A DNA stretch of 64,000 nt from Phoronis australis (Eukaryota > Animalia > Phoronida): the NCBI GenBank assembly GCA_002633005.1, contig NMRA01000213.1:589529-653528 (forward strand). The letters are read 5' to 3'. Each line of letters opens with the position of its first letter. The stretch's first letter is position 1. Below the pieces are notes generated by a model. That model was not told the origin of the DNA. It searched no databases and saw only the letters and a program-made list of their open reading frames with translations. This document shows, piece by piece, positions 1,109-63,300 of this stretch. The position numbers and the translations under genes are program-made.

Positions 1109-1767
1109 ATGTAGAAAAATAAATCAATTACTAGACTTACAGTTTATTGAGATGGCTACATTGTACGTTACGTCCTCCTCTCGAGGACTTCATCAGGTCA
1201 CTGAGGTGTCACGTGACTCGTCATGTGATCTACAGCACAGTTTGCGCGGTATACTCCTTAGTGCTCTAGCCTACGTCCTTGGCAACAGAAACCTCAGGCC
1301 CCCCTGTCTGTTTAGGCTAGGATTGTGAACTCTTTCGGAACCATGGTGTGAGGAAGAATACATGTACATTGGGGAAACCAAACAAGCCCTGAAAAGTAGT
1401 ATCAACCAACATCGTAGACTCAGTTATGAGGTCTGCTATGATTCTGCATATTGTAGTCATACAGCCGCCACAGACCACTTTTATCCCTGGATAATGTCAC
1501 GATTCTGGATGGAGAGGAAAATTGGTTCAGGAGAGGTGTCAAGGGAGCAATGAGTTGAGAATCTTAGCCTAAACAGACAGGGGGTCTGAGGTTTCTGTTG
1601 CCAAAGACGTGGGATAGGGCACTGAGGAGTATCCCGCGCAAACTGTGCTGTGGATCACATGACGAGTCAGGTGACAACTCAGTGGCCTGATGAAAACCAC
1701 GAGAGGGGGACGTAACGTAGCCATCTCAATAAACCGTAAGTCCAGTAATTGGTTTATTTTTCTACAT
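1109..1767. mobile_element. Penelope-like element fragment with inverted pseudo-LTR
   Basis: Imperfect inverted arms about 1109-1325 and 1560-1767 enclose a degenerate GIY-YIG fragment (C..EYMYIGETKQALKSSINQHRR); absent from the paralogous site near 54960. Confidence 0.8.
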
Positions 1768-2104
1768 CAGACACACACCTTTGAAGCAGGTAACCAGAAG
1801 ATAAAGAGATAAGAAGATAAGTGTGGACAAAACCCTCAGTCCCTGCAAGATGACAGCAGTGTAAAAAGACATTCGGGTTAATGTCCACGCTGAGGCCTCC
1901 AAACTGCAAAATTAGACTTGAATATAACTACAATGTGGTAATCACAGAGTGAATCGTGGAAACAGAATTAGATCTGAACCACGTGGTCAGTCTGTCATGT
2001 ACTGCAAAGCGAGGAATCCGACAATTATAAATCGGCGCTAGCTTCCCAAGCTAAAACCTTTGACCAAACGGCGGCAGTTAGGCTTGATAACACCTTGTCA
2101 TGCC

Positions 2105-2258
2105 CAGTGGCGGACTTAGAGGGGGCCAAGGGGGTCATGGCCCCCCTAGAATTCTCCCCAATTGAATTTGGTAATTCGGAGTGTAAATGTCTGACGGGCA
2201 AAGACCTGGCTAATACTCTGCCCCAGCCCCCCAACTCAAAATCCCGGATCCTCCCCTG
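2105..2258. mobile_element. Small MITE (CAGTGGCGGA...TCC.CCCCTG family)
   Basis: Imperfect TIRs; internal similarity to 7026-7156. Confidence 0.7.
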
Positions 2259-3170
2259 GTCAAGGTTTTGCAGCACTAGCTGGAGCATAGAACAGGCATT
2301 GCGCAGTACGTTTTGTCTGAGTAGACTTGAGTACGAACGTTCGAAGTCATTGAAGTGACTAACTCGAACCAGTTTCAGTCGGTCGTTGCACCGAAAGCTA
2401 CTTAACATTGGTTAGCGATAACCTGTGTCCGCCCACCCACGGAGCAAACCGTGAAATGTTCATTATAAAATTTGCAAACAGATGCGTTCCCGAATACGTA
2501 TCAATAAAACGAAAGACGAATATAGACGACACACACATATTAAAACAGCAATTTCTTATTTTTTTTTGTTTTCATTATTTTATTCATATCATGACTGCAG
2601 TGCAATAAACGTAATTTTTTCATAAGCTCATTCATTCACACATTCCGATGAGAAAACCAACCAGTTTCCTATCTTAAAAGTGCAATGCACTTCAGATCAG
2701 ACAAAAAAGCCATAAATGGGTAATACACCCTATGTCACGGATTTGGATCGTACTATGGCGTTGCAGTTTACTTTCTTATGTTATATTACTAAAATGTAGT
2801 TTAAACAATTCCTTCTCTGATAAGTAGCTTAAAAGTCCGGCAAATCAGTTTCCACTCAAAATCAGTGTCAAATACTATGAAATTTAATTTTTTGTGGTAT
2901 TGTAAAATTATAGAAGCTGCTGGACAGTGAAATAGTTTGTGTTTTGGATTAACTCACCCATGGTATCAGTAATAATAAATGGAAATTGGAAATATTTCCT
3001 GAAATTTCTGAGGATGACGGGGTCAAAGAAGCAAAAACACAGAAAACGCGTGAGCGAATCTCAGCTGAAGCCTAATTTTAGACTCTGAAACTTAGTTGTA
3101 AGTTTGACCTGTCGTAGTAGAATAGATAGTTTTATGATCCACATATGTCCACAAAACTACCACAATACAT

Positions 3171-4215: not shown

Positions 4216-5096
4216 TCACTTTAAAAACTACCGACGAACTTATGTTTACATGCAACAATTAGCCAATGTTTAGCAACCTCAGACAAAGGGAGCATTTGCA
4301 ACAGACACAACTGATCAGTGAAAATCCTCAGTCTTGATACTTTAAGTACTCAAGATTGTTTTTCAAAACATTGGTTCACTTCATAGAAAATAGAATGTAA
4401 TAAAATTAAAATAGTTGGTTTCCTGTGAATTATATTTTTCTTAAGAAGTTCTGCAATTACCACTGACGTCATCAAAGGAAAAATGGCTGCCGAGGAAGAT
4501 AAAGCAGACATTGTTCACTGGAGTCTTTATATTGATCTGGTTAGTGGGACTTCAATGGAATACCCAAACTAGCAAGCAGTTGAAACATTAGCTAAATCTA
4601 ATAAGTGGATAACAGATCTTCTGAAACATGTTAAATCAGGCCTTGTCCCGTTTACTGCAGGCAGAGAGTCAGCTGAATTTTGCCAGAGTGGGTCTGATTA
4701 CCTCCGTTTTCTCTCAGAATTGACTGTTTTGTGGAAAACATCGAGCTCAGTTTTAAATCAGATGGAGACCAAGAAAAACATGTACCTACCCTTAATAATA
4801 GAGTTTGATTTCGGGGTGTCAGAGGAAATTTCTCAAAGAATTGCTCGAGGAACAGAATGTACTGATTGAGCTAGGTCAGGTGACTTGTTATGCAGGTCAT
4901 ACATGTAAGTGTTCCAAAATTTTTAGAAATGTAGTTGGTACGTTTTGCTTTGTTAGGACAACAATTTGAAGGGTCACAACAATACTTTTGACTCCCCTGT
5001 TACCCTATGGTGTAGCCACCACGCGCGTTCAATACTGGTGAATAAAATAAAGCATCCTCTAGTCGTCTGTACAATTCTGTCAGCTACGAAACAGCA

Positions 5097-5312
5097 CTAG
5101 GGCAAAGTTCGCCGGGTACGACCCGATGATTACATGAAGCGTGTTGAACGGGAAGCAAATTCAGAACGATTACTAAATTAGTTATCATTATACATGTAGT
5201 TAGCAGTGGTACCAGTAGCTGCAACGGTTTTGTTGCTGTTGTCCACCTAAATCCTGTCCTTAACGGAGAGGCTGGACCTTTTCCGCTTTGGAACCTCCTG
5301 GCAACGGGCCTG
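5097..5312 (+). repeat. Diverged dispersed repeat shared with 8498-8735
   Basis: Colinear similarity, e.g. tagct(g/a)caac..ttttgttg(c/t)tgttgtcca and gaacctcc(c)tggc(a/t)acgggcc. Confidence 0.65.
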
Positions 5313-5384
5313 CATTTCTTCAAATTTAGGTTAATAAAGTTTAGGGCACACTGCTTACAGTCACGTTCTTAATGCTTATGAATG

Positions 5385-5890: not shown

Positions 5891-7025
5891 CACGTTTCGG
5901 CACTCAGTAACAGCAGCATGGAGTATGCATTTAAAAACTGCACTCGTCAGATATTTGTACTCAACACGAGATGTTTGTATGCAGTTATAGATAACTTTTG
6001 TTCGCCGTTATTATGGAGATAAGAAAGTGCGTGATTTAGTTTTTTTTTTTTGAAAACAGGCACATTTTCGTGTCTCTCATTAAAGTCGGGAAGGCAACGA
6101 ATTTCAGATCATGCAGCCACGGTTATTTGACCAGTTTATAAAACCTTTTCACGCCGGTGTTGCAGTCCACAACACAACACTTAATACTTCGTTAGCACTG
6201 GAAGAAAGAATAGAATAATGCAAGTGTCTCAGACAACAACAAATAACAAAATTGTAAAAATCCAGTGGCTCGAAAACGAGGCAGCAAATGTGCCTGACGC
6301 ATGTTTACGGCATTGTGGGTAAATACAGCTAGATTCGAGTGCCGCTGTGTAATCCGGGACGGCCCTATTGCCATGAACCGCAAGTATATAGTACTAACTG
6401 TATGTTTTTAATTCTATGTGTGCTTCGACCGCACAATTAGTAGCGGAAAGCAATCATAATGCACTTCAGCACGTGCATTATACTCAACTAAATAACCCCG
6501 GCATAAATCCTGAAGGTTACTGGAGTGATACACTGACTTATTCAGTTCTAACCGTGGCGTTATGTTAAACTAGGGAGACGATTTGTGTGCGTCAAAATAT
6601 TGCCCTTCGTTATCCGTAGGATTCACAAAGGACTGTAGGTGATACTCAATCATTAAACTAAGACCGTGAGTTATTTTTAGAGAGAACTCTTGTCGGTTAC
6701 TGACTGTAGCCCAGCTTAGAAAACTCTAAAAAGTTACTCAGCTACTTTGATATTTAAACACAAATCTTAGCCGAGTACAGAGATTTCATCGCTTACTTCT
6801 CTCCGAGCCAGTTCTAAATTTCGTCTTGTCTTTTACGCTGGCATTTCCTCCGCGATAATTCTACATTTAAAACATTCATTGACGCCTTGCTACGCGAAGA
6901 CATCTACATGTAATTTAAGCAACTCCTCGTGATGGTCATGTGACACAACTCGTTTCTCTGACCCTACTCCGGCAAGTGTGCAAAAAAGCCCAATAATTGG
7001 TCCAGTCACATAAAGTTTACGTAAG

Positions 7026-7156
7026 CAGTGGCGGACTTAAGGTTGGAGGGGGTAAGGCGACATTGCCCCCAAAAATTCTCCCAGATTCCATTTGGCAGCT
7101 TGGGGGTTCGAATGTCTGCCCTGCCCCTCCAACTCAAAATTCTGGATCCGCCCCTG
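7026..7156. mobile_element. Small MITE of the same family as 2105-2258
   Basis: cagtggcggac...ggatccgcccctg termini; shares the aattctccc and ccaactcaaaat internal motifs. Confidence 0.75.
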
Positions 7157-10100
7157 ATACCAACTTCTAAGTCTTTCGAAATTCTGTGCAATCTACGCAA
7201 GAAACGTGTATGATTGCATTCATTGTATTGTACTTGTAGTGCCAGTGACTGTTTACGGAGAATCTTTTCTCTGGTAACTTACCAGTGTTTCGACCAATCT
7301 CCATGTAAAATCCCTTCCGGGTGCAGCATTGATTTCTGGTCCTCAGCAATGGTGAACTTTCCCAATTAAAGACATAGTTTCACACCAAAACAACTGCTTT
7401 TCAACACAAATAACAGCACTGAGTGACTTTGTTGCACAGGGCAGTTCTTGTCCGCACAGCTTGGTTTATTCGAAATGCCCAGCAGTAATAAAGAAGTTTT
7501 AGTTATCTATGGGATATAGTATCTTTGGCAGTAATGACCTTACCCGACTTCAGCCGAGTCAATTCTGAGAACAGGAATATGTGGTTACATAACCGTTTGT
7601 GATGTCAGATCAGTTAGACAACTGTGTATTGCAATGGCTACAGGCACCCAACCCTCCAAAATTTACATGTAGCTTGCTTCATACGATAATTCCTTTCAAC
7701 TCAATTTGTTGGCATAACTGAATTGTTTTTTGCCAACGAGATGTAAAGACCATTGTATCACAGATAATAAAGCCTAATACAAAATATTACAGTTTTCATT
7801 TTTTCATTTTAAGCAGTGAGTAGGAAGGTTGTCACCTTTTTATTTAACCACATATGTAGTTGAAATTTGAGTGGAGGTGGCAATCTGAATGACAGAATTA
7901 CAAGAACACTTCAAATGGAGGTCTTCTTTTAAATTCATGTGTTTATTTATAGAAATAATAATAAAACCAAGGCATCCATGAAGATGCCAGTGAACATATT
8001 ATATCAGGCGTTCATTATGGCAAGATAATTCTACCATGCTAAGGTCACTGAGTCATAGAAATTAAAGAACAGATCAGAGGACGGTTATGATTTAATCCAC
8101 AGTCCAACGCGAATTGTGAGAATTTTCATCACTCAACAAGTAACATGTGCATGAACTGGATGAACAATATAGTTGCATATTTGACGATCACTTTCAATTC
8201 AAAATTTGAAAATGCCTACCCTTCTACCGTACTATTAGTGCAATTAATCCAAAAGAGCAGAATAACAAATCTCAATTTTCTGCTGTTTTGTTTCCTGGCA
8301 GAGTTTAAGGCATTCGCACGGCATTACTTTTTGGGATCTCTCTCGTTGTTATGTGCAAGTAGCTTACTTAGGTCGTAGGGCTAAACTTTTATGCTTAAGC
8401 ATAGACATTCACGTTCAGACTCCCTTGGGTTTATGAATAACACAAAGCCTACTCTTATCGTACATGTATGCAAGATCTCGTCATCTACAAACAGCGGCCC
8501 TCGGGAAAAGTTGGCCGAGTACGGCCTGATGCCACGTGAAGCGCTTTGAATCAGAAGTAAATTCAAAATTATTACTAACGTAGTTTTGATTGAATTTGGT
8601 AGCACTAGTAGCTACAACAATTTTGTTGTTGTTGTCCATTCCTATCCTATCTTTAACGAATATGCTGGGGTTGGACCTTTTCAGCGGGGGAGGGCTTCGA
8701 TCGAAGTCCCCGAACCTCCCTGGCTACGGGCCCGCCTAACAATAATAATAAAAGTAAAATTACTGATCAATGTAAAAAGGTGAAACATAAACTAGAATCT
8801 TTATTTAATTCAACTGCAAATCAGTTACTATTTCCAAAAACATTTTACATAGTGGTTGGATACCCCTGCCCCAAATGTTGACGCCTTGGGCCGTCGCCAC
8901 GATGACTGAGCACCATGTGCACAATCTATGAATAATTAATTTGAACGTATTTTATATTCACTATCAGGACAAAACGCGAACAGTTCCATTGCCCTAACAA
9001 CGATTGTCAATCTAACTACACTGAAAAATTATCAATACTCGTTATTTCCACGAACTGTGAATAATATGTTCGCAACATGAACAGAATGTTTTATCTACGT
9101 TACAGCTTTGATAGTTTCCATGCAATCTAACACTACCGTACGAATCCATTATCAGGTGCCGCAGAGGTGTTTTCAGCCTTTTTGGAGAACACCATGTCAA
9201 GCATAAAAATACGGACTGTTCCAACAGCCCATCTTCCTCGTACGTTGCACTGAGAACGCACCGTTTTTCCGCACTTCACGTAACATTGGGTTTGAGAATT
9301 TCAACTTTTGATAAAACATCGTTCCCATCTGGCGTAGTTTGGGCGCTTCAGGGCAAATAATACATATAGCAGGGTCATGAAAATGATGACATTATTGGTT
9401 TTTACCATCTCTGGAGTTCTCTGTGGGCTCGGTTTATCAGAAAGATTTAGCTTGCCCAAAACTGATCAGTTTTGCCAAATTTGTGAAATGAAGGTACATG
9501 TAGTTGGCGCGCATACATAACGTAGAGGACTTCAAAAGACGGTATTTCGATTATTCCTCGTTTTAGCAGTTGCATCAAATGACTCGTCTTAAAACAGGGG
9601 GACGCAGTTTAGACTGGAAAAATAGGACAACGAAAAATCAACCTTCTTGCAAACACAATGTGCCATCCGTCACGGAAGGGTTTTTAGGTTTTGTTTTTAA
9701 TAGTGAATCATGTAGAGTATTCCGCTGTTTTTGCATAGACTTGGGAGGACACTCCAACCTCAGGCGCGATGTTTCGTGGTTTTCATGCCCTGCCGTAAAC
9801 TTGCGGACAAAAATCTCTCACCTTGCGTGTTGACCTATGTCGTGTTACTTGGTGGGTTGATTAAGCTCAATTCGGGTATTTGTCTGGCGGGGCTAACCCA
9901 CCACTAGATTTGTCTGGCAGTGTTCATTCGTGATACCTTGGCTCACGGTGAATATTTTGTTTCATGTGGTTACCTCTTGGATTGATCGAGCTCAATTGTT
10001 TTAACTTTTTTATAACCGTCTGGCTGATACTCACCACCACTGAAATTGTCTGACAGTGACCAATTTTGATACAGTAGATTACGTAGTAGGTTTCGAAGGC

Positions 10101-11394: not shown

Positions 11395-12280
11395 TTCGCG
11401 TGGCGACTATAATGACTACTCCCCATAGAGTGGCAAAATTGGGAAAATATGAAAAGAATTTTAAAAGAAATGTCTTTGTTTTTTCACCCACTGTCTCCTT
11501 CTCGTTCTTTCAAAGCACTCTCGACAAATTTGGTTTAAAACTACTTCATCATCTATAGTTAATGGCCTAGTCAAAGACCTTTTTGACAGTGAAGGTCATC
11601 ATTACGGATGACATTTCACTTGCTTAGTACCTTCTTGCAAATAATCTATTCATTTACTTTATTTCAATTCTATCTTTGTTAACGCGTCAATCGTGTATAG
11701 TTGGTCTTCATTTGTCGGTATACAATCATGAAAATTTAAGCTGTTACCAGGAATGTAAAACTCCTTAGACGTTTGGTATTGTACTGTACAACCCAGCCCA
11801 TCTTTATTAAAGAAGGCACTAATGTACATGTATTATGTTAGGGCAATTTATGAATGCGTTTGCCTTTGTTGGGGTGTTCTTTTTTAAAGATGTAGATAAC
11901 AAAAAGTGCTATGATTTCGCGTGGTGACCACAACGGCAACGATGACGAAATTGGGAAAATATGATAAGAATTTTTTAAAGTATCATCTTTCATTTTTTCA
12001 GCCAGTGCCTCATTCTCATTGTTTCAAAGCATTCTCGACAAAGTTAGTTTGTAGCTAGTTTATCACCAATAGTTACATGTAATTGCCTTGACAAAAACAC
12101 TTTTTGTCCGTGAAGATCGTCATTACAGATGACGTTTCACTTGCTTAGTAGCTTCCTGCGAATAATCTATTCATTCACGTCATTTCAATTCTACCTTCCG
12201 ACCGAAGATTTGTTAACGCGTCAATCATTTATATTTCGCCTCCATTTGTGAGAGTATTGTACTATACAACCCAGTCCTCA
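11395..12280 (+). repeat. Degenerate tandem duplication, ~520-bp period
   Basis: 11395-11795 aligns to 11915-12275. Confidence 0.8.
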
Positions 12281-12735
12281 AGCTGAGTGCAGCGATGGCT
12301 TCGGTAGAACTTGGTGTACCCAACTTATTTTTTTGCAGATGGATAAATAGGCTTAGACTCGGATCAGGAGTTCAAAATTTCATCACCTAGTTTCACATGG
12401 TCAAAAATAGAATTATTTTCTTCTTAGTCTAGCTACAACACCTACATGTACATCAGCTGGTACAGCAGTCTCAATTGCCCGATTACGCACTCAGCTTGAG
12501 GAATCAGTGCTGAAATTGTGCGTGTGCAAGAGAAGTCAGAAAGGTTAGGTGTCTTGCTAGAGGACACTGAGAGTCGACGTGGGTGGTGTCGCCCGATTCG
12601 ATAAGAGTGCAGCACGTGTTGTGAAGGCAGTCTGCGCGCGCGAGGCATGGACATCTATATGCCGCCAGAGTAGAGATTGAAATGACCCAGTGTTCAACGT
12701 AACAAAAATGTTCACGAAAACAACAACGGATTTAA

Positions 12736-13503: not shown

Positions 13504-14604
13504 TTAAATCCGTTGTTGTTTTCGTGAACATATGCTGTTACTTGCTATCATGGAGAACACAAATGTTGTATTGCACAGATTCAAACGTATCGTTGAATTG
13601 AAACTCGTGATATTATTATACGATTTTAGTGGAAAATAAGATAAGAAACTTTGGTAATTATTGAAAATCTCACCCAAGTGACTCCATTTGCGCAGAAAGT
13701 GCTATTTTGTTATCCCAAAGTCCATTCTTCCAAAATGTTGGCGGTACAGGCACGTGGAAATGTTGAACCACTACAATGAACGTAGTTCTTTATCCTCGTC
13801 GCCAATATTGTTATGTAGACACTAACGCAGTGATTTGATATAAAAAATGCATGTATATATTCTGAATGCTTGAGAAATATAAGATGCATGCAATTACTCA
13901 GTGGAAAGGGTTATCGTTTTGAACTGAAACTCAACTCTGCTTCATAGCGAAGTTCACGGTAAAATCGGAATTACGTAATTAACATCATTCTAGTCCCGTC
14001 CCAGGCTGTGTTTTGTAGACCATTAAACTGCGGCGAGAAATGTTTTCTTATGGAACAACAGGAATATTGAATTATTTCCCATGATGAATTTAATCTCATG
14101 ATGCAGCATTCCAAACTCACCGACCTATCACTCCAGTGACGACTCGCCTTGTAACCAATATTCACGAAGCACTTGCCTTTTTCTTTCGTTATGCCTGTTT
14201 TCACTCTAGAAACTCGATCTACATGTACGCAACTCGCACCTGGTGATTTTGGTCACAGCACATGGGTGCAGTTGTGAAGTCTCCTCAAGGGCAAAGCAAG
14301 TACAAGGTTGCAATGCTTATAAAATAACACGAAAAAGTTTGCTTTTCTTTGTTAGCTAGCTGCATTTACTAAACCGTTATCACGTTTTTGTAATTATATT
14401 CTTGCAGTTTCGAAGCAAGGTATATCTCTTTCATTTTTCCAATAGATAATAGTGGTCCGTGATAACGGCATTTTATATTCTGACCGTACATACCGGACTG
14501 TAGGCTGAATGTAAACAAGAAAAAGTCATGTCTAAACAGAAGTGAAAGAAGTAAGACTGTGATTCTATCATTTAAAGATGTGTGTATTTGTTCTTGCACG
14601 TTAG

Positions 14605-15627: not shown

Positions 15628-16411
15628 GTACGTATATGTTTATACACAAGCGGAGACAACCTAGATTCCCATCTCTTTCAGATTAGAAATGACTTCCGAT
15701 TTTGAGAAGAGCTGAAAGATTGTTCTTGCTTGAGACCGTGCAAAAATGACCAGCCTGGTTAACTAAGGGCTTATAAATTGCTGCTGTTTCGTAGCCGAAT
15801 CTGCGTTTTGCTTCAGCCACACCAGCATACACGTATATTTTCATGAATGTAACTGACTAGCAAAAGAATTAGTAATTATTAAGACCACATAAGTGAATAC
15901 AAGTCAAGGCTCAGCTACTACTACCTACAATATTTGACACTATTCATTGTTTATACTCTGGGTGGTGTTTTGCTTTAGGACTGCCAACGAATTCATTCCA
16001 AGTTTACTCTACCGAAAACGTGACCATGACCGGGAACAATATAACGACGGTAAGCGCGTCCAGCGAACATGCCTGTGCCTCTTACTGTGCTAATGACACT
16101 CAGTGTAAATCCGCAGACTACACACCTGCCACATCCGATTGCGTATTCAAAACTGCAAACGATTCGCTGTCAACATTCAACTACGACACAATACGGACAC
16201 AATCTGGAGTCAAGCATTTGGAGTTTCAATTCACCGATGGCAAGTCAAATTCTACTTACAGTTCATTTAGACTGTGTATCAGGCATCATTCTGGGTACAT
16301 GTAAATGGTCTCCCACAGTAACTTACCAGCAGATATATTTATGAATGAGTATATTGAAGTAATGGTGGTAATGGCGATTATAATAAATGTGGTGGTGATT
16401 AATGTGACAAG

Positions 16412-16455
<44 letters not shown>

Positions 16456-46352: not shown

Positions 46353-47671
46353 NGCCCCCCCCCCCCCCCTGGGAGCGCGCATGTATTTAGTCTATAGCCA
46401 TTGTTGATATAACGACTAGTGTCCTCTGATTGGCTGAAGCGGCGAACGATAACTTCCGTTTTAAATGTAAAAACCACGAATCTCTGACAAGAGCGAATAA
46501 AGGGTGACAGTGCTTCAGTGAAGGTAAGAAAATGTTAATCTTAAAAGAGACTTGAAAATAAGACGAACCGAAGAACAGCAATGTCGTGGTCGGCCTTTCT
46601 TTTGCTACAGCATTGTCCGTGTGAAAATTATCCTTGGGATCGGTCCCTACTTGTATAGCGCTTTTCATCTTTCTGAATCAGCGATCGTTAAAAACCCTAC
46701 AGCGCAAATAACACATTTTACCATACCCCCAGACAAATTGCCTGCTGAATGCCAATGAACTGGCTCAACTTGATGACGGAAACAATTTACCGGAAACTTG
46801 GACTTCGTCACTTCAACGTGTTGAACAGTCATAGTTGCGTTGAAAACGAGACCGTAGAAACGTAAATATTTTTGAAAGGTGCGCAAACTGATTTGAGTTT
46901 ACCCAACTGTCCACACCCAAAGTGGTCACGAAATTCAAATTCTTCTCTATCACCAATCAGGTCGTCGCTAGTGGGTGACATGTACATATATCTCTTAGGC
47001 AACCTGGGACTTGAATTTCTAGCAAAGATGTCACCCAAAATTCAACTTCCCTCCTTTCATATAACAGACATATGATGGTCTGTTGGGGGTAATCGGAAGG
47101 ATGTCAACCATACTCGACTTTGCCGCGGTCAAACACAAGGATCACGTGGCGAAATGGTAGGCTGTTTATGACAATGTGCAAAGCCATCGTCTTCAACAGC
47201 TGGTTTCGAAAATATGCGTTTTTCAATTTCCAAAGTGGTTACAATAGCTCTTTATCAACTTCACAGGGTTTTTCACAAATGACTTTAAAATACCGTAAGA
47301 GATTGAGCTGTTGCAAAAATCTGGAAGAAATGGTATTCATGGAAATCAATTCTGCAGTGGTTATTCTAACCCCACGTGAATGTATAATGGTAAGACCGTT
47401 TGTTAAAATTAAATCCGTTTTAATATCTGATGGCCAATTTCAGTAACGTCTTATCAGGGCTTCTTCAACCGTTTAGTTAATGTTACATGTACGAATAGCA
47501 CATGAAGTGATACAATTACTGCCTGCAAATCGAAATCATCACATGCAGTCAGATTAACAAATATAACAAGAACCAGTATAAAGATGACCACTACTGGCAG
47601 ATATCAGAAATACAAGTTATACTTTTGCTAAGCGGTGCAAGAGCAAACCGAAGTTGAGAAGCCACCTGATC

Positions 47672-49165: not shown

Positions 49166-51129
49166 GTTTTTCTTCGGGCAATCACTTCATAAACACCTTT
49201 GCGTTTTGCATGCACCCAGATGTCCCGTGTCAGGATGCCCCCTGTTCAACTCAGTTGTCCCAATTTTCTATTCTCTGTTCCAGAAACTCAAAAAGGCAGC
49301 CTTTTAGATAGTTTCTTGCTGAAAATGGCACCATCTTGGGAAGTATTTTTGCAGTGAAAAACACCCCTTTGGAGGCACTTTTGTATATCTCTTCTAAACG
49401 AATGCCCTCCGGACTGACACCGCATAAATCTGGCTACTTATTACCATTTGTATTACTATTATATTACTATTACTACTTTCGCTACTATCGTTATAGTTGT
49501 CATAATAATCATTTTATTGATCTCTTTGAATTTATTTAGCAATTACAAATTGCCTTTTAAATAATATTTGTTTTATAGCAAAGTGCTAATGCTTCATGGT
49601 ACTCGTAGATTTTAAATTCATTTATGGTTCAACGTTTTCACCGGGCTTCCCCATAATGGACAGAGAGTGCTTAAAGGTTTTTTTATGTTCAACCTTAACG
49701 ATATCGTGAGAAACGTCATGACACCTTTGGTTGCAGAGTAGGTCTACTCTTTGGAAACGAGGGAGTTGAGATTTAAATTTTTCATTAGACTGCTCCATTT
49801 CAAACATTGATTATTTCTGATCTATCGGCATGAACGGTATTGTTTGAAAATATAAACATATCCTTCTGTAGTTTGCCGCGAATAACTGAATTCAGACTGT
49901 AATCTTTTACTTGCGACTTACATGTACATCTAAACGTGGGGATACCCACCGTCTTATCATTTTTGTCTCTTTGAAAACATTGCTGTTTTTAAAGATCTGG
50001 GGCTCGCTCCACGAGGTAAGATCAAAAATTGCTTTAAGTTGAATTCTGAAGATAGACATTTTTCGAGAACTAGCGACAAGTCGGCTATGGTTGTGGTCAC
50101 TGGGTCATTAGAATAGCTGGTAAGGGGCACACAAATCACGCAATTTTATATGGAAAGATCGCCAGTATTCAGTGATTTAACTGAGTAATTTGAACTAGGT
50201 TTCATTGAAAGTGGGTTGTAAGAAACAAAAACGGCCAACCCAAAGTCAGCGTTGTTTAATATGCGCTTTTTATGCGAAGTAGCAAAAGACCAAAGACCCT
50301 TTTCTTCCAGCAACCAGGCGTATTGTTGACAGCGATATGCAAAACAAAAATGGTGCCTTATGAGACACGTGGCTTCACGTCCATTAATACTAGAATGTCC
50401 AATCTCTGTCTTTATTGTGCTTCGGCCCTAGGAACTCGATTCCTAGTTCGGAATAACGTTCATTGACCAAATAGCAATTTTAATTGATTTTTATCTTAAA
50501 CTATGATAGAAAGGAAAAGTGCAAGTTTTTGTAGTCCGAAAAGCCGACATTTAGCTTTTTTCGGACAATTGCCCCTTTTAACTATCGACCTAGACCGGGT
50601 ATGAGCAAAATGACCGTGTCCTTTCAGAGTGGCAAATACTCTGCTATTTCCCCAGCTAGGCCTTCCATTTTACGAATACACGTCACGGTTTGATCAGTTG
50701 CTGGTACACAGAGCCCGTCGGCATTAGAAACTTTGATCTTGCCCCTTTTGTGTGGAGCATTAGCTGTGACTCCAAGGCAACCAAACACTGACTGAAATAA
50801 ATCAAGCTATCGTGGAGTAAAACGGGCGTTTTTCTATCAAATTGGCTGTCAAAATTGAATTCTCCGTGGAAAAATTTAATTTTCGTTTGTTCTCAAAGAA
50901 ATGTGATAAATACATGTATTAGCCAAAATGCGATGTCATTGTTTCTGCTGTGCTTACAGGGTACCAAGGAAGAGTGTTTACTGTAATGCCGGACACACAA
51001 TAGGGTGTGACCTGTGAACGCCAATAAAAGATTGCAAGAACGCTTTAACAATAAAACAGTGTTACCTGATCCTGGAAACTCCTTTCGTCTGGAGTTGAAA
51101 CAGTATGGGATACATTTTTACTATACCAA

Positions 51130-53000: not shown

Positions 53001-53740
53001 TCGATTATGTATGTATCTCGATTTCTGGTCAGGGCAAATGACAACGATGAGTTTCCTCATCGGGTTTTTGCGAAGGACGTTGATTTGGCTGGATCGAGTG
53101 GCAAAGTCATCACGTGTCTGACTTGCCTGTATGATGGTTCATTGCCAAAACAGGGGCAGCAGCAAAGACTGCGTCAGAGTACTAGAAACAAAACTCAATA
53201 AAGCCGATCCTGGATCATGCTATTGATTTGCTGTGTATAGTAAGTACTAATTAGTGCGTAGTGGTGCATGTATTTCAACCTTTAGACGTGCATTTTTATC
53301 GCACCACTTACAATTGAGCCTGTCGTGTTAAACTTTACATTGTACATGTATCACTTTTTTCAGATTAGCAATACTGCAGAAGCAAACTTCGGCGGGTATG
53401 GAACTTCGCATGCTTCTATCGTGGACAACGATATTGATGTTGACAGTTTGACGCAGGCTTTTTGGATGCTGAACGTCTTTGGAAACAAATTATGTTTGCC
53501 GGTCTTACCAAGATGTATGGAAATGCAGGACACGCCTTGCGTATTTTTGTGAAAATTTTGTTGAATCTTCTTTTGAAACACAAATTGACTACATTAGCCT
53601 ATCTGCACAATTTTACAACTTTTGGAGGGATGTGACAGAAGGAGACGTCCCGCTGAACAGTCTCGCTGTGCAGACAACGGTCCTGAAAATCTGTATCGTT
53701 CGTACGTCCCCCCCTCCCCAACACCTGCGACCCAGGAGGT
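53001..53740 (+). pseudogene. Possible decayed PAN/CTL-like exon remnants
   Basis: Segments with AG/GT-like borders and fragments such as FPHRVFAKDVDLAG..CLTCLYD and WKCRTRLAYFCE, broken by stops and frameshifts; 53568-53680 is homologous to 1-115. Confidence 0.3.
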
Positions 53741-56700
53741 AGGACCGTCATTCAGCTCGCTGAGAAAACTGATGAATTTCTTTTGGACCTCCATGTTAAA
53801 TGACGACTGTCTGTGTTATTCTTAATGAACGCCCACAGCATTATTCCAGCTGGTGTCAATGACATCACAGGGCAATCCAAAGCAAAGCGCAAAGACTGTA
53901 ATTTCCCGAGGACATTCTAGCTTATGACTCAATGAAATGTCGTCAACTCAACAAAGTGTCTTTTAACAGCTTGTGTCGCGATTGCATAAATTCACGCTGT
54001 ATATGCCAACGCATAAGTGGGTTACACACAGATATTACAAAATGAAAAATGTTACCCTCTCACGATATTCTAGATCCATCACTGTTTATTCCGTTTTGAT
54101 GTGTAAAACGAACTCACTGGTACCGCCTGCGTGCGTATTCTATTTCTAATTCTAATCTGAAGGCACATGGACATATAATAATCCAAGCTTCAGTTACTCG
54201 CTTTCTTCAAATGTTTGCCATTGGTTTGTACTCAAATGTATTGCACTTTCATATTGTGAATTACAATAAGTGGCTGTAATATTACATCGATCACAACATA
54301 AATATTGAAACGTGTGTCAACGTAAAATGAAACAATGCCGTAAAATGTAACAGTTGTTATACATTTTACGAAGGTCTAACATTTTACGGCGTATCAGAGC
54401 TCCAAAGCTGGGAATTGAACCAATGGCAACATGGCTATGCACCAAATGCTACTCAGCAGGGTTTGTATGAATTTAAAAGTAACACAATCTCTAATGAAAT
54501 TGATACTACCACCATCAGTATGCTTTGCGAATCAAACATTCAGAAACAACCATAAAGCGACATTCTTAGAGGAACAATTACTTTGGCTATCAAACCCAGG
54601 CCTCCTTCTGTCGATTCAACTTGGCTAATAGCCAGCATAAAATTTATCTCGGCGTGTTCCTTATCCAGAGGAAAGGTAACGTTAGGTCTTGTAAAGAAGT
54701 GACAATGTGTTATGCTCGAGACCGTGCCGGAAGAATAAATGACATTTCGTGAGGAGTCGACGTGTAAATACCGTATGAAGTAACATTCAACATCAAATCA
54801 TGTTCAAACCCACAATTCACATCCATTTTCCTAGGACCCATTTGAAATCAATTCCATATTAAATGCTCCTGGTCGACATGAAAAAATGGTTTTCGTTATG
54901 CAAGGTGCGTTTCAATCCGTTTTAAATTCCGATAGACCATGGATTAATGGCAAGAGCAGGCGTAGATCTTTCATGCAGGTGACCACAAGATAAGGACAAG
55001 TGCGGACAACAGCTCTGCTCTCAGTCCCTGCAAGATGACGATAGTGGCAACAGTGTAGAAATTCATTCAGTTTAAATTCCATTCTGAGGCCTCCACACTG
55101 CAAACTTAGAATTGAATCTAAATACGATGTGGTTCTCACAAAGTAAATCATGGAAATAGAACCAGATTTGAACCACCTGGTCAATCTGTCATGTATTACA
55201 AAGCGAGCAATCCGGCTTATATAAATCGGAGCAAACTTCCCAGGCTAAAACATGGCGCCAAACGGCGGGATTTAACCTTGACACCCTGTCATGCCAACTT
55301 CTAAATACGGAGAATCTTTTCTTTGGTAACTTACAAGTGTTTCGACCAATATCCACGCAGAATACCCTCCGGGTGCAGCATTGAATTACTTGTTCTCAGC
55401 AATGGTGAACTTTCCCAATTAGGTTAACGTCTGATAGGATCCCTTCTGGTTTTCGACGTATTCCTCATTTTCAGAAAGAGTTGCTAGTAACCAGCCATGT
55501 GCGCTGCCAGGATGGGCAAGAATGTCCCCCTCACAGAAACAAAAAGACCGAGAAAACGAGATAAAAGCCCACTAAAAAGGCAGGAATTCGGCGAATGCAC
55601 AGTTCATAGCCCGGTACGTACCCGGAAGTTTTTAGTAAAATCTCCACATTCTCAAAAATTCGAGTGTCCCTTTATTTAAGCTGGATGCGTGCATCGCCAA
55701 TTATGGTTTACGTTTTGTAGTCTTTATGCATGTGCCTGAGCAACCGTTAGCATTGTTTACCTTTTTAATTTCACAATTTAATTATTTTTAAAGTAAGTTT
55801 CGCACGTTGAAAATTAATAACCTCCTGAAGTTAATGTCTTGTAATCAGACCGACTAAAACTTCCCTAAAAGGTATTTTTGCTAAAACTCGGTCTTAAGTC
55901 CGTTAATGTTTCAATTTTTTCCGGGTGGATTGTTCCTAAGTTCCCGATGAAGTTTTAATGTTATTGAAAGGTTCAAAGGTTAACCTTGGTATCTAAGAAA
56001 CTAGCTGGCTCGATCATCGTCGTTCATTCACACCAACTCATTAATGGGTTCGTATGAATGGGATAAAGGTGTTATCTTACATACACAGTAATGCTATTGC
56101 AATTTCTCAACCCGAATATATTTCTTTATATAAATGCTCTAAAGAGACCAAACCTATAATGATTTACCTAGCACGTGTTTACTGGTTCCGTGGTAAAAAA
56201 ACATGTAAGTAAGTGGCAAGTCGATTTTGCATTACGCTCTATGAAGACTTGACATTGAAATGCAGACTTCTCTTACAATAAGCAAATAGCGTAAAGAGCA
56301 CTTGTTACATCCCATACACGCTGAATACACTATACATTGTAAGTTGAATGTCATACGGCCACGTGGTATTGTTTTCCGTATTGCACTCTCGGGACTAGTT
56401 TAACAATGACCTCTCACGTGGAAAATTCAAAAGGCAAGTAAATGTCAACCCGACGTTAACCGTCTCGATCAATTAATTATGAAACACTCACTTCTGATTC
56501 AAATATTGTCGTTATTTGATTATTTTCAGAAAATGTTACAAATTCACTGCACAATTACCGCTGTTTTCATCTTAGCTTTGTCTTCTTAAGTGTGTCGTTA
56601 CATCTTATACTGTTTTCTTTAACTAAAGTAAATTGTAACATAACACGACCTTATTCCGCGTCTGGACCAAAACCGAAGTTCTACCCGGTCTCGGTAGATA

Positions 56701-59700
56701 CGAGGATTGATCAATGTAAGTAGTTGGAAATTGAAGAAAGCCAAACTTCATCGTACACATCTAGGAATCGAGTGATTGGTGAATGTATTATTTGCAATTG
56801 TATTGACATTACGCCTTTCAAACAAATAATTTGATTACTCTTAATTTCTCGTAATGTTTTTGTATCATGAAGTGCTAATGAACAATATGAGAATGCTCTG
56901 AGGAGAGACATTGACAAAATCGTAAAACGCTGAAGATGGGGTCGACGACGAAACCAAGAATATCAATCAGCATGCCCTCGACGTCTATTATATAAACAAC
57001 GTACAGACCGTCACTCAAGGTACTCCTGGCAGGGGTTTCTGCTTCTAACGTGACTGCGTCCAACAGGAAATTGTCAAGTTTAAACTCGTTAAGTAGACTA
57101 GTAATCTCTGCTTTTAATATATCATTATTTTGCCCACAAATCCCGAAATTTCCTATTTTGGCTAACAAAACACTTGGTTACAATGTCCCCGGCTCATATC
57201 TCAGCCACATAATGAAATTCAAATGAATACTTCAAGTAGATTCAGCATGGCTGTTTGTTTCTAATGTGAATTTCCCGTAGGCGAACAAAAAAAATTGTAT
57301 CAATGGCTGCATTTCATTGGCCTCGTCAGCTCCGCTGTGTCGAAAGATTATGCCATCTGATTGGCATATACAGTAAGCCGGAAGGCGTCATCGAGAACCA
57401 ATCAGTCAGTGGGTCCCCTCCATATCGATCGCAGCTTCAGTCAAGGAAATAGGGGAAAAGGAATAAAAACCCTCATACAACGCCAAAAATATTCACTATT
57501 AAGCGCAAAACTCAATTTCGCCATAATCAAAAACAGCGTTTTGCGCAAATCTTTGGGTATTAGATAGGTTGTTCGCTTCTCTGCATGCATATAGTGGTTG
57601 CCGTCATTAAGGACGTGGAAACGTGATGCGATGCTGCTGACTTTATTGGCTGTTTTTGGTGTTATGGAATGTCTCTTGGCTTTAATGCTAATGTGTCCTG
57701 TCTGTTTTATAAGCGGTAAGTGTATTGTTACTTTTATTTTTTCGCTGTAGTACAAAATAATTGACTGCAATTTCTATTCCATTGCTAGACTTTTCGCTAG
57801 TCAGACGATAATTTAACTCGATATTTTAAAACTTCCAAACCAATTCCCTAAATATCTAAACAGATTTGTTTTTTATTTATCGGCCGAGTAATCAAATGTA
57901 AACTGTTTACTGGGTATATGTTGGCATTTTCGTCGAGAATTTTTTCTGAAATCAGCCTCAGCGCCCACTCGAGTCTGAAATTTTTCCTTGGCAGCCACGT
58001 ACTCTGTTAGCTGGGCTAAATCCCAATCAGCGTACGGCACAGAATTTTAAGCGTATTCTGAAATAACCAATGAAATCCAAAATAAAAATCAATCTGCGGG
58101 CCACCTTTCAAATTCAGCTCAAACTTCGTGTATTTGTCATGGTGTGGCTCTGATACAATGATTATCAACTCTGTACTTATTGACATCTTTTTGTCTGTAA
58201 GCCTTCAAAAGGTTCCGAAGAAAAGTGGCATGTTTATGCATGCCGAAAACAACAATTTTAAACTTTAAGAATGCAATGAGAGAAAACACATAATGGGATT
58301 AGGAAGTGATACAGCAGACTCCCATACACTCCATCACGTGACGGGATATACATGTAGATCAGTTGATAATTGTGGGTTACACTCAAGTGCTTCTACAAGC
58401 CAGTTTGCGGAGCTGTGTGCCTTATAGGGTATGTTTAAGATTAGATTTTGAATGTGTGAACGAATTTTGAAAATCTCTCCAATAGGCTTTATTCATTTTT
58501 CGTTTTAATTAAAAAAATGTCCCAAAATTGCTTATTCTAGGCCTTTTACACAGTCAAAGAATTAATGAAAATCATCCATAGTGATGTCTAACATACGACA
58601 TTTCACAATTGACCGTGGCTCAGAGGTTATGCCGCTGGCAAAAAGGTGATGACATATTTGCCTGGTGCCATGCCCGGTCATGCTAGGTCACAGGTGTCGA
58701 TGTCTCCAATACAAAAATGAAAAAACAATAAAAAGTCGCCAGCAAAACGAAAACGCGTGCGCCAGCGAGGGTAAATCCCAATTAAACCACCTCGAATAAA
58801 TTGAGGGGGTTAACTCTCAAACACAATGAATATAATTTCTTTGCATCTTGATTTGCTGTAATCACGAAAAGCAGAACAGTTTGAGTTTATGTGACTCATC
58901 GGCTTCCAATGTTTGTGCTTCTACTACAAGTAATATTCTAGGTTGGTTTTAGTTTAAATGACCATTGGATTGACCTTGCACTGCGTCAAATAAGTACAAG
59001 TACCTGAAATTGCTTTGAAATCGTTTTTTTTTTTTTAATCAGCTTTTCTTCAAGGTATGATTGTGTGCCCCTTTTTTTAAATTTTATGCATAAATTGTTC
59101 TTTTGATTCATGTTTTTGTAAGAAGTCAATTTCAATATTAAGTCATGTTAAAGCAGAAAAACGTTGAAGAATAACAATAAATATTTGCAAATTGTGCTCC
59201 TCTACGGCACTTGGGATGCTTTCGGTGGACACGTGTCAACATTTCGAGTTGGTGTGATTTGTTTATTAGTCTACAACCACTCCTTGTGTACCCACTTTCT
59301 GCCAAACCCTTAATCGCCCCGTTATACCGCCTCTACATTTTATCACGGACAATATTTTTCAAAATAATCAGGGCAACGGCGAAAATCCACATATTTGCAC
59401 AAAACAGCGACTAGATATACATACATTTTCACCTTGAATAAATTTCAGTTTTGGCTTACTTTTGACAGTTAGTTATTCCACCCACGTTGTCGAAGTAGTG
59501 ACGATTTACTGCGAAAGTACATTTCATAAAATAGGATTAATGTCGTATTAAACTCTGACCAAAGTTCGGCGAAAACGTTTTTAACGATTTTCGGTGCGTC
59601 AAGGTTTAGTAAACTGAATTAAATAATTGTGGCAAGCTGTTTATCTGAGTTTGTAAATTCTGTTTTTATTTTGGAAACCACTGTACCCCTTCACAAAGCA

Positions 59701-59846
59701 GTATCGATTTTGCAGTCAAAAACGCGTTTTGGGGATGTTTGATAGATTGGATAGATGCAATGCTATAAAACAAAATCCGTGGCGTTCCGATGAATACTCG
59801 TCGTTGTCTGAATGACATTAACTGAATTCGTGTCCGGTGACTCTTC

Positions 59847-60351
59847 TATGATGGGCCGTTGGGGGAAAAGTGTCGCCGGAAAAATACGAGCGTAATTGTG
59901 TACATTACGCCGTTTTTTACGCCGTTAATTACGCCGTAAAATTACGAGCGTAACTTAATTCTCTACGGCGTAAAATTACGCGCGTAATTTAGTTTGAATT
60001 CTTAGCCAATGACGTTAGGTTTTACAATCCACGATTGCGCGCTTTCATGGAAACACTTATTTACTGACGGATTTCATGTCTACGATACGAGTGCTGAATC
60101 ATGGCGGATCAAATCGCTCCTGCCATGTCAGCGATTGTGCAAGAACGAGCAACAGTCGTGCATGTTAGGTCATCACTGATTGGTTTAAATTTGGAACGTT
60201 CTTAAGGTATTTTAAGAGCGTAATTTACGGCGACATTTCCACCATTTAATTTACGGGCGTAATTTTACTGCAACACTTTTGCAGTTTAACTTACGCTCGT
60301 AATTACGAGCGTAATTTTACGGCGACACTTTCCCCTCAACGGCCCATCATA
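59847..60351. mobile_element. MITE with TAT..ATA termini and a 6-bp TSD (IS3EU-like)
   Basis: TIR tatgatgggccgttg..aaagtgtcgccg and cggcgacacttt..caacggcccatcata; ctcttc on both flanks; many internal ttacg..cgtaa motifs. Confidence 0.85.
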
Positions 60352-63300
60352 CTCTTCCACTTAATACGCTGGAAATACAGTCTGCCGTTTATCGAGCGTG
60401 GTTTAACTCCACTAACACTTTAATCTTTTAATCATGACGGGACGAGGGGTGTAGGTTGGAATGCAATCTGAGACTGAACGCAGAAAATCTCATGTTAATG
60501 GAATTCGATGGACTATCAATGTGTTTTGGGGAAACAAGACAAACGTAAAAAAATAGATAAGTCATTTGATCAAAATTATTGAACGTGCCACTCAAGATAA
60601 TGATTACAAAACTTGTTTCCACCCGAAGAATTTCGACAATTATAACTCTTCAGAACATGTCCTTGATGAACTGAAATGCAATAACGTTGTATTCATATGC
60701 AAATGGTGTCGTCTACTTGGTCTCGTATTCCAGAATGCTGCTATATCCTTGCCCATTATCAGCCAACAAAACCAGACATTGAGTGCGTTGATATTTGTTT
60801 TTGTAACACTCCGGCACTTCGATCAAACAGAAATGTAGGCCTACTGACAATGATTTTATGTTCCGTTTTCGATTTACAATAACAGGGAAATTGCATGCAT
60901 GGCTAGATGCGCACTACCCATACTAGGGGAATCCCCTTTTTTCATTTCCGTCACGGTAATTGATTTTGAATATCCTAAAATTACAGCGTCCATAAACCCA
61001 CCGTCCGTCACATAAGGTAAATTGAATGCAGTATATCGAACATGGCACATGCAGATTGAGGATATTGGAATCTATGCTTAAATTTATTATTTACATTCAC
61101 CAAATTATCCCTTATGCGTTGAATCTTTCGAGGGAAATACGGCCATGCAATAAAGTTTTCCGTATTCACCTCCCGCACTACTTCAACAGTGACCTCTGAC
61201 ATGGAAGGTTCCAAAGGTAGGTCAATGTCGACTCGACGTCTTCAGCCGGTTCGATCAACAAACTTTCCGAATATACATGTAGTTTAAAGTAATACAGTTG
61301 CAACAATTTAATTAACACCCGACATGCAACCAAGCCCTAAACGTAAAATCTGGAACAAAACTTTTGATTATATGACACTTCCGTCTCAGTTTTCAATTGC
61401 TGAATACTGAAACTCAGGTGCCGATTCCTAGGACACTACCATACCAAATGTTGTTATGTAACTATTTCCGGGAGATGTTACAAGTTCACTCAGTGCACAG
61501 TTGCCGTTGTTTTCATCTTTGTTACCTCTTTTCAATAAATAAATCGTTACTTTTAAAACTGTTTCTTTTAAAAGAGTTTGCAAACTAACGCGCAAGGAGG
61601 CCTACATACCTATAGGATAAGATCCGCCATGTGAACTGTCTGAGTGAAGAATTTAAAAATCTGCCGATAAATGAAAGAAACTCAGGAATTCGAAGGGCAT
61701 GGGATAAATACAAAACGTACCTCGATTAAGTGGCGTACATGAAGTGGTATCCCACTCGACATTATTCCGCAGAATAATGTCTCGTGGGATATTATTTCAT
61801 GTACGCCACTATCGGTACATTTTATGTATATAGAATACGTGACAAGTTTCATTCATCGAAATGTAAAATATTCATTACGTCACTCTTTTCTTTTTGTTTG
61901 CATTCTTTCACTATCATTTGTTTGAAGAGGGCGAGGTATCCGCGGAAATCTCACTTATTTCATATGGTGGCAATTGAATGAGTATCCGGGATGCATGAGT
62001 CACCTATCTTTCACTACGGCGGCCATTTTAATGTTGCACCACTAAAAATGCGAATTTTAGTCAGATTTAAAAACTAAAAAAATCATATTAAATACAGTTA
62101 ATTTTTAAAATTTTCGGAGTGGTGTTGAACTAGCATGTGCTAAAATCCAGTTTATTAAGCCTTTGACTAAACTGAAGCAGGGAATAGTATTTTAATGCCC
62201 GTGAAAAACCTGCGTTGAAGGAGCAGGTCACGGTGGTGTGCTGCAGGCTGGCACTGTTTTCCTAAAACCTGTGTTGATCAAGCTCTGCTGTTAGCTCACG
62301 GTCGATCGGGTCATGACACTTTAACACATTTTGTTATAATCCCCTGTGTCATTTTCATTTTCATCTGAACACGAGAGATGCCTGTCTCGAAATATAAACG
62401 TTATTTTAATTATCCATGTTTGGGTATTGTCGTTGTTCTTCTGCTCTCCCGTGGATGGTCGACAAATATACATAGAGTTTGAGTACTGTGTATGTGTGAA
62501 AATCGCCAATTGTAACAACGTCGTGCGTTTAAAGTTTGGTCACTCATGGGGAAGGGTGCATTGTCTCTAATGGCCATAATACAGAATATTGAGCTCCAGC
62601 TAGGAACTTTTTTGTTTTTTTCTGATGTGTTACAAAAAACAACATCAAAACTATACAGACGTATGATTGAGAAATATAAGATGCATGCAGTTACTGAAAA
62701 GGGTTATAGTTTTGAAGTGAAACATCAACTCTGCTTCATAACGAAGTTCACAGAAAAGTCGAAGTTCATATTTAACATTATTCTTGTCCCGTCCCAGGCT
62801 GTGTTTTGTAGACCATTTAGCTGTGGCGGGGAATGTTTTCATATGGAACAGGAACATTATTTTTTCCCATGAGGAATTTAATCTCATGTTTCAGCAATCC
62901 AAACTTACCGATCTATCACTCTACTGACGGCCATTTTTCCAGGTAACCAATAATCCCGAAGCACTCGCGTTTGTCTTTAGTAATGCCTCTTTTCACTCAA
63001 GAAACTATATCTACTCAACTCACACCTAGTGATTTTGGTCACAGCACATGGATGCAGTTGTGAAGTCCCCTCAAGCGCAAAACAAGTGCTGGGTTGCAAT
63101 GTTTATAAAGATAGCACCAAAAATGTTTGCTCCCTTTTGTAAGCTAAGTGCTATTTCTCAATCGTTATCATTAACTTATATTTGCATTCTTGCAGTTTTG
63201 AAGAAAGGTAGTTTTCTCTTCATTCATCCCATAGGGGTCCGTAGTAACTGCATTTTCGATGTTGATAGTACAGATCGGACTGTAGGCGGAATGTAAACTA

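What the first reader, a model, noticed from the sequence alone, without database searches (positions are those of the whole stretch)
1359..61281. Pervasive TACATGTA octamers are 6-bp insertions at TA: candidate transposon excision footprints
Seen: about 26 TACATGTA counted by eye (e.g. 1359, 4900, 5191, 6905, 8461, 12074, 14220, 18061, 23182, 39949, 46109, 50911, 61274), against roughly 2 expected from base composition. Internal paralogs show the state without the extra bases: 12074 agtta-catgta-attgcc vs ~11557 agtta-atggcc; 14220 atcta-catgta-cgcaactc vs ~63008 atcta-ctcaactc; 39949 atgta-catgta-ccctg vs ~44403 atgta-cgctg. The Penelope YIG motif at 1359 reads EY-MY-IGET. A 7-bp variant (ta-cattgta, about 1157) is present in one palindrome arm only. 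None was seen in the lectin exons. Established: Tc1/mariner elements duplicate TA, and C. elegans Tc1 excision leaves TA-CA-TG-TA. Inference: a very active cut-and-paste element with CA..TG ends has scarred this genome about every 2.5 kb, acting as an in-frame (+6) mutagen.
Basis: partly seen in the sequence, partly recalled or inferred. Interest (0 to 1): 0.8.

Follow-up and report, generated by a model that had tools for sequence, protein, structure and literature searches.

The report
Transposon excision scars pepper invertebrate DNA
The eight-letter word TACATGTA occurs about fifteen times too often in this animal DNA and, where a sister copy or other reads allow a clean check, it is six extra letters at a TA site, likely a scar left each time a Tc1/mariner-type jumping gene cut itself out, although that gene was not found.

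Summary
There are 26 TACATGTA against 1.7 expected.

Six-letter gain at TA: three in-window paralogs lack exactly 6 bases (12074, 14220, 39949). Site 18061 is empty in contigs of one sample and in 4 of 20 raw reads of another. Only 1 of 26 sites can be read as slippage.

New test: the flanks carry the Tc1/mariner target signature, A at -3 and T at +3 (31 of 52 against 31.5%, P 3e-5).

Best reading: germline excision scars of a TA-targeting element with CA..TG ends. This is inferred; neither the element nor a filled allele was found.

One-mismatch neighbours are in about equal excess, which suggests long, steady build-up rather than a burst. Absence from exons has no statistical power.

This scan noted the same pattern in urchin, bivalve and oyster DNA. 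Ten paper searches found no genome-scale description of it as scars.

The parts
1359..1366 (.). TACATGTA scar; two extra codons in front of an IGET motif of a Penelope-like relic (label recalled)
   Evidence: no Pfam or homologue support
4900..4907 (.). TACATGTA, empty state not seen
5191..5198 (.). TACATGTA; 69% paralog lacks the word but the gap is 9 bp (ambiguous)
6905..6912 (.). TACATGTA, empty state not seen
7664..7671 (.). TACATGTA in a repeat; other copies lack 3+3 letters here
   Evidence: 19 of 38 and 18 of 36 X5 reads, contigs of X1 and X4
8461..8468 (.). TACATGTA; 67% paralog is 6 bp shorter here (weak alignment)
9495..9502 (.). TACATGTA, empty state not seen
11825..11832 (.). TACATGTA, empty state not seen
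12074..12081 (.). TACATGTA; clean 6-bp gain against the paralog near 11557
12443..12450 (.). TACATGTA; a contig loose end reads about 6 letters shorter here
   Evidence: table 7 (one contig each in X1 and X2)
14220..14227 (.). TACATGTA; 6-bp gain against the paralog near 63008; one X1 contig lacks 6 letters, X2 and X3 contigs carry them
16296..16303 (.). TACATGTA downstream of the PAN-domain stretch; region skipped in alternative contigs
18061..18068 (.). TACATGTA; empty TA in contigs of X1, X2, X3 (4 other letters in 269) and 4 of 20 X5 reads: segregating allele or very close paralog
20779..20786 (.). TACATGTA; present in identical contigs
23182..23189 (.). TACATGTA; present in identical 1,211-base contigs
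24066..24073 (.). TACATGTA; present in near-identical contigs without gaps
39949..39956 (.). TACATGTA; 6-bp gain against the paralog near 44403, also readable as an ATGTAC tandem duplication
40827..40834 (.). TACATGTA, empty state not seen
42133..42140 (.). TACATGTA, empty state not seen
46109..46116 (.). TACATGTA inside an open frame of a LINE-like relic (label recalled; frame stays open)
   Evidence: no homologue found
47484..47491 (.). TACATGTA, empty state not seen
49919..49926 (.). TACATGTA, empty state not seen
50911..50918 (.). TACATGTA, empty state not seen
53336..53350 (.). Stacked pair sharing one TA: 7-bp variant (53336) plus TACATGTA (53343)
58349..58356 (.). TACATGTA, empty state not seen
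61274..61281 (.). TACATGTA, empty state not seen
1157..1165 (.). 7-bp variant TACATTGTA, absent from two paralogs (1549-1767 arm and 51132-51330)
714..722 (.). 7-bp variant TACATTGTA, empty state not seen
25111..25119 (.). 7-bp variant TACAATGTA (reverse complement form), empty state not seen
56333..56341 (.). 7-bp variant TACATTGTA, empty state not seen
61709..61828 (.). Decayed 120-bp foldback whose arms begin TA-CA(A/T) and end TG-TA: weak candidate relic of a non-autonomous element
   Evidence: single copy in the window; boundary not proven; no relatives found

Best explanation
The excess TACATGTA words are six-letter gains at TA sites, likely the heritable scars of an IS630-Tc1-mariner-type cut-and-paste transposon with CA..TG ends that inserted at TA, duplicated it, and later excised. 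Inferred steps: the transposase picks a TA with A at -3 and T at +3. Excision leaves terminal bases of the element on both flanks. Germline end-joining keeps them, giving TA-CATG-TA. Two sub-models fit: (i) two 2-nt CA overhangs, as in Tc1, both kept by fill-in; (ii) a 4-nt self-complementary CATG overhang from an element whose ends read CATG, which would explain why one product dominates. Scars have probably accumulated steadily over a long time, at about one per 300 substitutions on a rough steady-state estimate, and some appear still to segregate.
For: Shown: 26 vs 1.7 expected. None of the 5 in-window paralogs that cover an exact site carries the word; 3 show a clean 6-bp gap, 1 a 6-bp gap in a weak alignment, 1 an ambiguous 9-bp gap. 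3 of 5 six-base indels between paralogs are this event. Both 6-base indels among the 12 shown (of 22) rows sit on a site; 18061 is empty in contigs of S1 and 4 of 20 raw reads of S2. Repeat copies lack 6 letters at 7664. The inserted CATG is not a copy of the flank at 25 of 26 sites. Flanks: A at -3 in 18 of 26, T at +3 in 13 of 26, together 31 of 52 vs 31.5% at all TA (P 2.7e-5; the T test at this offset, P 3.4e-5, survives correction for 40 offset-base tests); 343 other TA-NNNN-TA words show 34%. This matches the Tc1 consensus CAYATATRTG with its conserved outer A/T pair (PMC9635669). One-mismatch words are in excess (60 vs 37) and keep a weaker flank bias (49 of 120, P 0.02). Tc1 does leave TACATGTA in the germline (24 of 103 frame-selected revertants, PMC4490562 supplement).
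Against: No transposase and no clear TA-CA..TG-TA element in the window; no genome to search; no filled allele among the shown read rows (both tables cut, 183 and 10 indel rows not shown). The canonical 4-bp (TACATA 39 vs 44.5) and 5-bp (TACAGTA 14 vs 11.3) footprints are not enriched and cannot be as common as the 6-bp form (P about 7e-5 and 3e-5), unlike somatic C. elegans Tc1. Rice excisions are mostly imprecise (8 of 94 perfect, PMC4423477), so such uniformity is unusual. The empty reads at 18061 and 14220 could come from close paralogs in this duplicated cluster. About 2 of the 26 are expected by chance, and 17 of the 26 have no empty or shorter state seen at all.
Confidence: 0.8

Rival explanations
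1. The gains are real and targeted but are not left by a Tc1/mariner element that stayed and left. They come from another TA-targeting mobile family, from abortive or hit-and-run transposase action, or from an unknown repair process that writes CATG into a duplicated TA.
For: Element not found. The product spectrum is far more uniform than known Tc1 spectra. The same word is reported by this scan in several distant animal groups (unchecked notes), which is hard for one element family to cover unless CA..TG ends are common.
Against: TA duplication, non-templated CA/TG and the A-3/T+3 bias together are the Tc1/mariner signature. CA ends are common among such elements (Tc1 3' CA overhangs; others recalled).
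Confidence: 0.12
2. TACATGTA is a selected protein-binding motif (Irx/TALE homeodomain type) kept in non-coding DNA, as proposed for Phytophthora.
For: PMC3520976 (passage) names TACATGTA as an abundant Phytophthora promoter motif and as the preferred Irx site; PsMyb37 binds it (PMC11134190 passages).
Against: The word arrives as a one-step 6-bp gain and is absent from paralogs. It lies inside dead repeats, appears polymorphic and has a transposase-like flank bias. Selection could act on some scars afterwards but does not explain their origin.
Confidence: 0.04
3. Replication slippage or tandem duplication of pre-existing ATGTAC/CATGTA hexamers creates the word.
For: 39949 can be read as an ATGTAC duplication.
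Against: Only 1 of 26 sites has the 6-mer tandem pair that slippage would leave; the empty states at 12074, 14220 and 18061 hold no template.
Confidence: 0.03
4. Assembly or library artefact.
For: Runs X1-X4 may be the sample the window was assembled from, so they are not independent.
Against: Contigs carry sites 14220, 20779, 23182 and 24066 without gaps. In raw reads of a second sample only 4 of 20 lack the six letters at 18061. Decayed one-mismatch copies are in excess.
Confidence: 0.01

Closest known systems
Tc1 excision footprints of Caenorhabditis elegans (PMC12632400 passages; PMC4490562 passages and supplementary file 4; PMC3520976 passage citing Eide and Anderson 1988, which was not held)
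   Same: TA duplication plus CA and TG; TACATGTA is a recorded product; target consensus with conserved A at -3 and T at +3 (PMC9635669 passages).
   Different: In the worm TACATA/TATGTA make up 78% of somatic footprints, germline products are very varied, and too few scars were found at known transposon sites in 45 wild genomes to analyse. Here one 6-bp product dominates, 4-bp forms are not enriched, and it marks about 0.55% of all TA sites.
Sleeping Beauty-type 5-bp footprints (TA-CAG/CTG-TA) and the Minos 6-bp footprint (both recalled; the search gave only listings)
   Same: A fixed-length scar of terminal bases between two TA; Minos also gives +6.
   Different: TACAGTA is not enriched; the Minos core is not CATG. 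A CATG-ended element with a 4-nt stagger is a hypothesis only.
Genome-wide DNA transposon excision scars between rice species (PMC4423477, passages)
   Same: Excision is treated as a genome-wide source of variation read from alignments.
   Different: 94 events, mostly imprecise, with deletions and filler; no single word accumulates.
Phytophthora motif-1 / AM-20 TACATGTA (PMC3520976, PMC11134190, passages)
   Same: The same octamer, highly abundant in a genome.
   Different: Interpreted there as a transcription-factor site, with the footprint idea considered and dismissed; here it is shown to be an insertion.

Membership tests
IS630-Tc1-mariner excision footprint | Sits at a TA that is single in the empty state and doubled in the scar | tested here: met
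   12074, 14220, 39949, 1157 against paralogs; 18061 against contigs and reads
IS630-Tc1-mariner excision footprint | Bases between the two TA do not derive from the flanks | tested here: met
   25 of 26 sites not explicable as tandem duplication
IS630-Tc1-mariner excision footprint | Flanks follow the transposase target consensus (A at -3, T at +3) | tested here: met
   31 of 52 vs 31.5%, P 2.7e-5; control words 34%; consensus from PMC9635669
IS630-Tc1-mariner excision footprint | Inner bases equal the termini of a resident element (CA..TG with TA duplication) | tested here: inconclusive
   No clear element in 64 kb; one decayed foldback at 61709-61828 fits but is unproven; no genome held
IS630-Tc1-mariner excision footprint | A DDE/D transposase of the family exists in the genome | not testable with these tools
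No genome.
IS630-Tc1-mariner excision footprint | An allele with the full element at a scar site | tested here: inconclusive
   None among shown rows for 15 sites in 4500-24499; tables cut, two samples only
C. elegans-type somatic Tc1 spectrum | TACATA/TATGTA are the main products | tested here: not met
   39 observed vs 44.5 expected
Irx/Myb-type binding motif under selection | Conserved at homologous positions and enriched at promoters | tested here: inconclusive
   Absent from all 5 paralogous positions, which argues against; promoter or chromatin enrichment not testable

The most novel reading that the evidence does not exclude
Across many marine invertebrates, one uniform germline repair outcome of cut-and-paste transposition has been writing TACATGTA into genomes at steady state. 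It leaves far more scars than surviving elements, gives a countable fossil record of transposition and germline end-joining, adds two codons when it hits exons, and seeds a ready-made Irx/Myb-type binding site genome-wide. The abundant Phytophthora promoter motif may have begun the same way.
Probability: 0.25. Interest if true: 0.82.

Novelty: new variant of a known kind. Interest (0 to 1): 0.52.

Why it matters
Cut-and-paste activity is normally counted from surviving copies, and excisions are thought to be hard to see. A uniform scar on about 1 in 180 TA sites would make the number of past excisions, their target preference and the germline repair route directly countable from any assembly or variant file. 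It would also define a recurrent non-slippage +6 indel class that affects alignment, motif discovery (false 'regulatory' motif) and possibly protein loops. The mechanism itself, a Tc1-type footprint, is textbook; the scale and uniformity are what I could not find described.

Tried and rejected
Whole genome not held.

Search for TA-CA..TG-TA inverted-repeat elements in the window found only internal points of larger palindromes.

The metagenome scan with a short pattern from the 61709-61828 foldback gave 1 hit, L001. It has 52% GC, no similarity to the window and no foldback, so it was rejected as chance. No earlier look-alike of the foldback.

Protein searches for the Penelope-like (1329-1484) and LINE-like (45870-46349) relics found nothing, and pairwise comparisons were too weak to place the two-codon gain. 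The TSP1 search gave only hits of 54% identity or less among the 120 listed of 544, across molluscs, cnidarians and others, so the taxon was not fixed.

One search was swamped by repeats (12 of 195 indel rows shown). The 7-base gap at 16747 is not a scar. TATA, TACTA, TACATA, TACAGTA, TACATTA, TACAATA are not enriched. The 7-bp variant (5 vs 1.1, P 0.005) ranks only fifth of 512 TA-N5-TA words, so its excess alone is weak; its support is the 1157 alignment. The 15.9-kb gap without sites (24066-39949) has P about 0.02, not taken as evidence.

Lancelet papers PMC4284660 and PMC12373286 (term passages) do not mention such scars; their supplements were not read and might. Eide and Anderson 1988 was not held.
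Full report
Setting. The window is animal DNA of about 40% GC. It holds a duplicated cluster of PAN, C-type lectin, WSC, SUEL-lectin and TSP1 exons among decayed repeats. No genome is held. The TSP1 exon has only distant hits across invertebrates, so I call the host an invertebrate without naming it; an earlier unchecked note on this genome calls it marine.

Observation. There are 26 exact TACATGTA at the stated places, against 1.7 expected (P 3e-22; simulations mean 1.65, maximum 6 of 100). It is the top 8-mer after masking arrays. The excess is about 24 sites, one per 2.6 kb, 0.55% of TA dinucleotides.

Are they insertions? Five exact sites lie in repeats with an alignable in-window paralog, and none of the five paralogs has the word. 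12074, 14220 and 39949 show a clean 6-bp gap, 8461 a 6-bp gap in a 67% alignment, and 5191 an ambiguous 9-bp gap. Of five 6-bp indels between paralogs, three are this event. The 7-bp variant at 1157 is missing from two paralogs.

Public runs add more. Five runs from two samples were offered. On 14000-18750, 12 of 22 indel rows were shown; both 6-base rows fall on sites. At 18061, contigs of X1, X2 and X3 are empty, with 4 other letters in 269, and 4 of 20 raw reads of X5 are empty, with neighbouring SNPs at about half frequency. This reads as a segregating allele, though a very close paralog is not excluded. At 14220 one X1 contig is empty while X2 and X3 contigs carry the word. At 7664, repeat copies lack 3+3 letters (19 of 38 and 18 of 36 X5 reads). 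Contigs carry 20779, 23182 and 24066 without gaps, against an assembly artefact, though X1-X4 may be the source sample. Direction is inferred: a 15-fold excess needs creation, not loss.

Slippage. Only 39949 has the tandem hexamer that slippage would leave (1 of 26). The CATG core therefore comes from outside the flanks.

Target signature (new test). Tc1 prefers CAYATATRTG, with a conserved outer A/T pair (PMC9635669, passages). Around the scars A stands at -3 in 18 of 26 and T at +3 in 13 of 26. Together that is 31 of 52 against 31.5% for all TA (P 2.7e-5); both occur at 9 of 26 (P 0.001). No other offset from 1 to 10 reached P 0.01, and 343 other TA-NNNN-TA words show 34%. This ties the gains to a Tc1/mariner-like transposase independently of the inserted letters.

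Product spectrum. TACATA/TATGTA (39 vs 44.5) and TACAGTA/TACTGTA (14 vs 11.3) are not enriched and cannot be as frequent as the 6-bp form. In C. elegans 78% of somatic Tc1 footprints are the 4-bp forms (PMC12632400, passages). TACATGTA was 24 of 103 frame-selected germline revertants at one site (PMC4490562, passages and both parts of supplementary file 4) and is called rare in PMC3520976 (passage). Either both 2-nt CA overhangs are kept by fill-in, or an element ending in CATG is cut with a 4-nt stagger so that the ends are cohesive (analogy to Minos, recalled). The 7-bp variants read TA-CA-(T/A)-TG-TA, never with C or G in the middle (5, 0 and 0). That hints at ends CA(A/T) or an untemplated base, but the numbers are small.

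Tempo. One-mismatch words number 60 against 37 and keep part of the flank bias (49 of 120, P 0.02). An excess ratio near 1 is what steady production with mutational decay predicts, about one scar per 325 substitutions. This is a rough inference from one window. It argues for a long-running process rather than a recent burst. One stacked pair shares a TA (53336-53350).

The element. No TA-CA..TG-TA element with good inverted repeats lies in the window. A decayed 120-bp foldback at 61709-61828 begins TA-CA(A/T) on both arms and has A at -3 and T at +3 outside, but similarity runs a few bases past the TA, it is single, and no relative was found. It is a lead only.

Effect on proteins. The frame stays open across the word in a LINE-like relic (46109), and the word adds two codons before an IGET motif at 1359. 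Both labels are recalled, and searches gave no homologue. No site lies in a Pfam-matched stretch, but only about one is expected there, so neither an effect on genes nor selection against it is shown.

Literature. Ten searches (only the listed top rows were seen, for example 40 of 425 and 30 of 37) found no paper describing genome-wide TACATGTA scars in animals. The library lacks most subscription journals, and supplements of genome papers were not searched. The same octamer is known as an abundant Phytophthora promoter motif, where a footprint origin was considered and dismissed (PMC3520976), and it is bound by PsMyb37 (PMC11134190, passages). Rice comparisons show mostly imprecise excisions (PMC4423477, passages). 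Earlier notes of this scan report the same pattern in urchin, bivalve and oyster DNA, also without the element where stated (38 findings in at least 5 genomes, 8 shown). These are unchecked AI notes, not support; they led me to PMC3520976.

Verdict. Real, non-random 6-bp gains at Tc1/mariner-like target sites; excision scars with probability about 0.8; culprit not caught. A new variant of a known kind, already seen elsewhere in this scan; interest 0.52.

Noticed in passing
window 13897-13903, 40009-40015, 61489-61495: A second recurrent gain: CTG becomes CTCAGTG (or CAG becomes CACTGAG) against paralogs; 3 of 6 four-base indels, one of them alignment-dependent. CTCAGTG counts 17 vs about 7, but three or four lie in one repeat family and other CT-NNN-TG words reach 15-17. 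By inference it is the product expected from hairpin-type excision of an element with a 3-bp CWG duplication (CACTA or Harbinger-like).
   Followed up: partly
window 59847-60351: 505-bp element with about 50-bp terminal inverted repeats starting TATGATGG, flanked by a 6-bp direct repeat CTCTTC; family not identified.
   Followed up: no
window 61709-61828: Decayed foldback bounded by TA-CA..TG-TA; possible relic of the scar-making family; no relatives found.
   Followed up: partly
window 12708-13531 and 1109-1767: Two large palindromes (arms 99% and about 87% alike) made of head-to-head pieces carrying YIGET-type frames, Penelope-like by recalled motif; the 1109-1767 one interrupts a repeat whose other copy is at about 54400-55300.
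   Followed up: no
   Followed up: partly
window 51588-51653, 52188-52253, 54321-54388: Three copies of a 66-bp hairpin repeat; the third has an extra TA at its centre.
   Followed up: no
window 29279-30208: Perfect 28-bp tandem array, 33 copies at 100% identity.
   Followed up: no
window 15324-28451: Cluster of SUEL-lectin, PAN, C-type lectin and WSC exons with duplicated segments and strongly differing haplotypes or paralogs in the reads.
   Followed up: no
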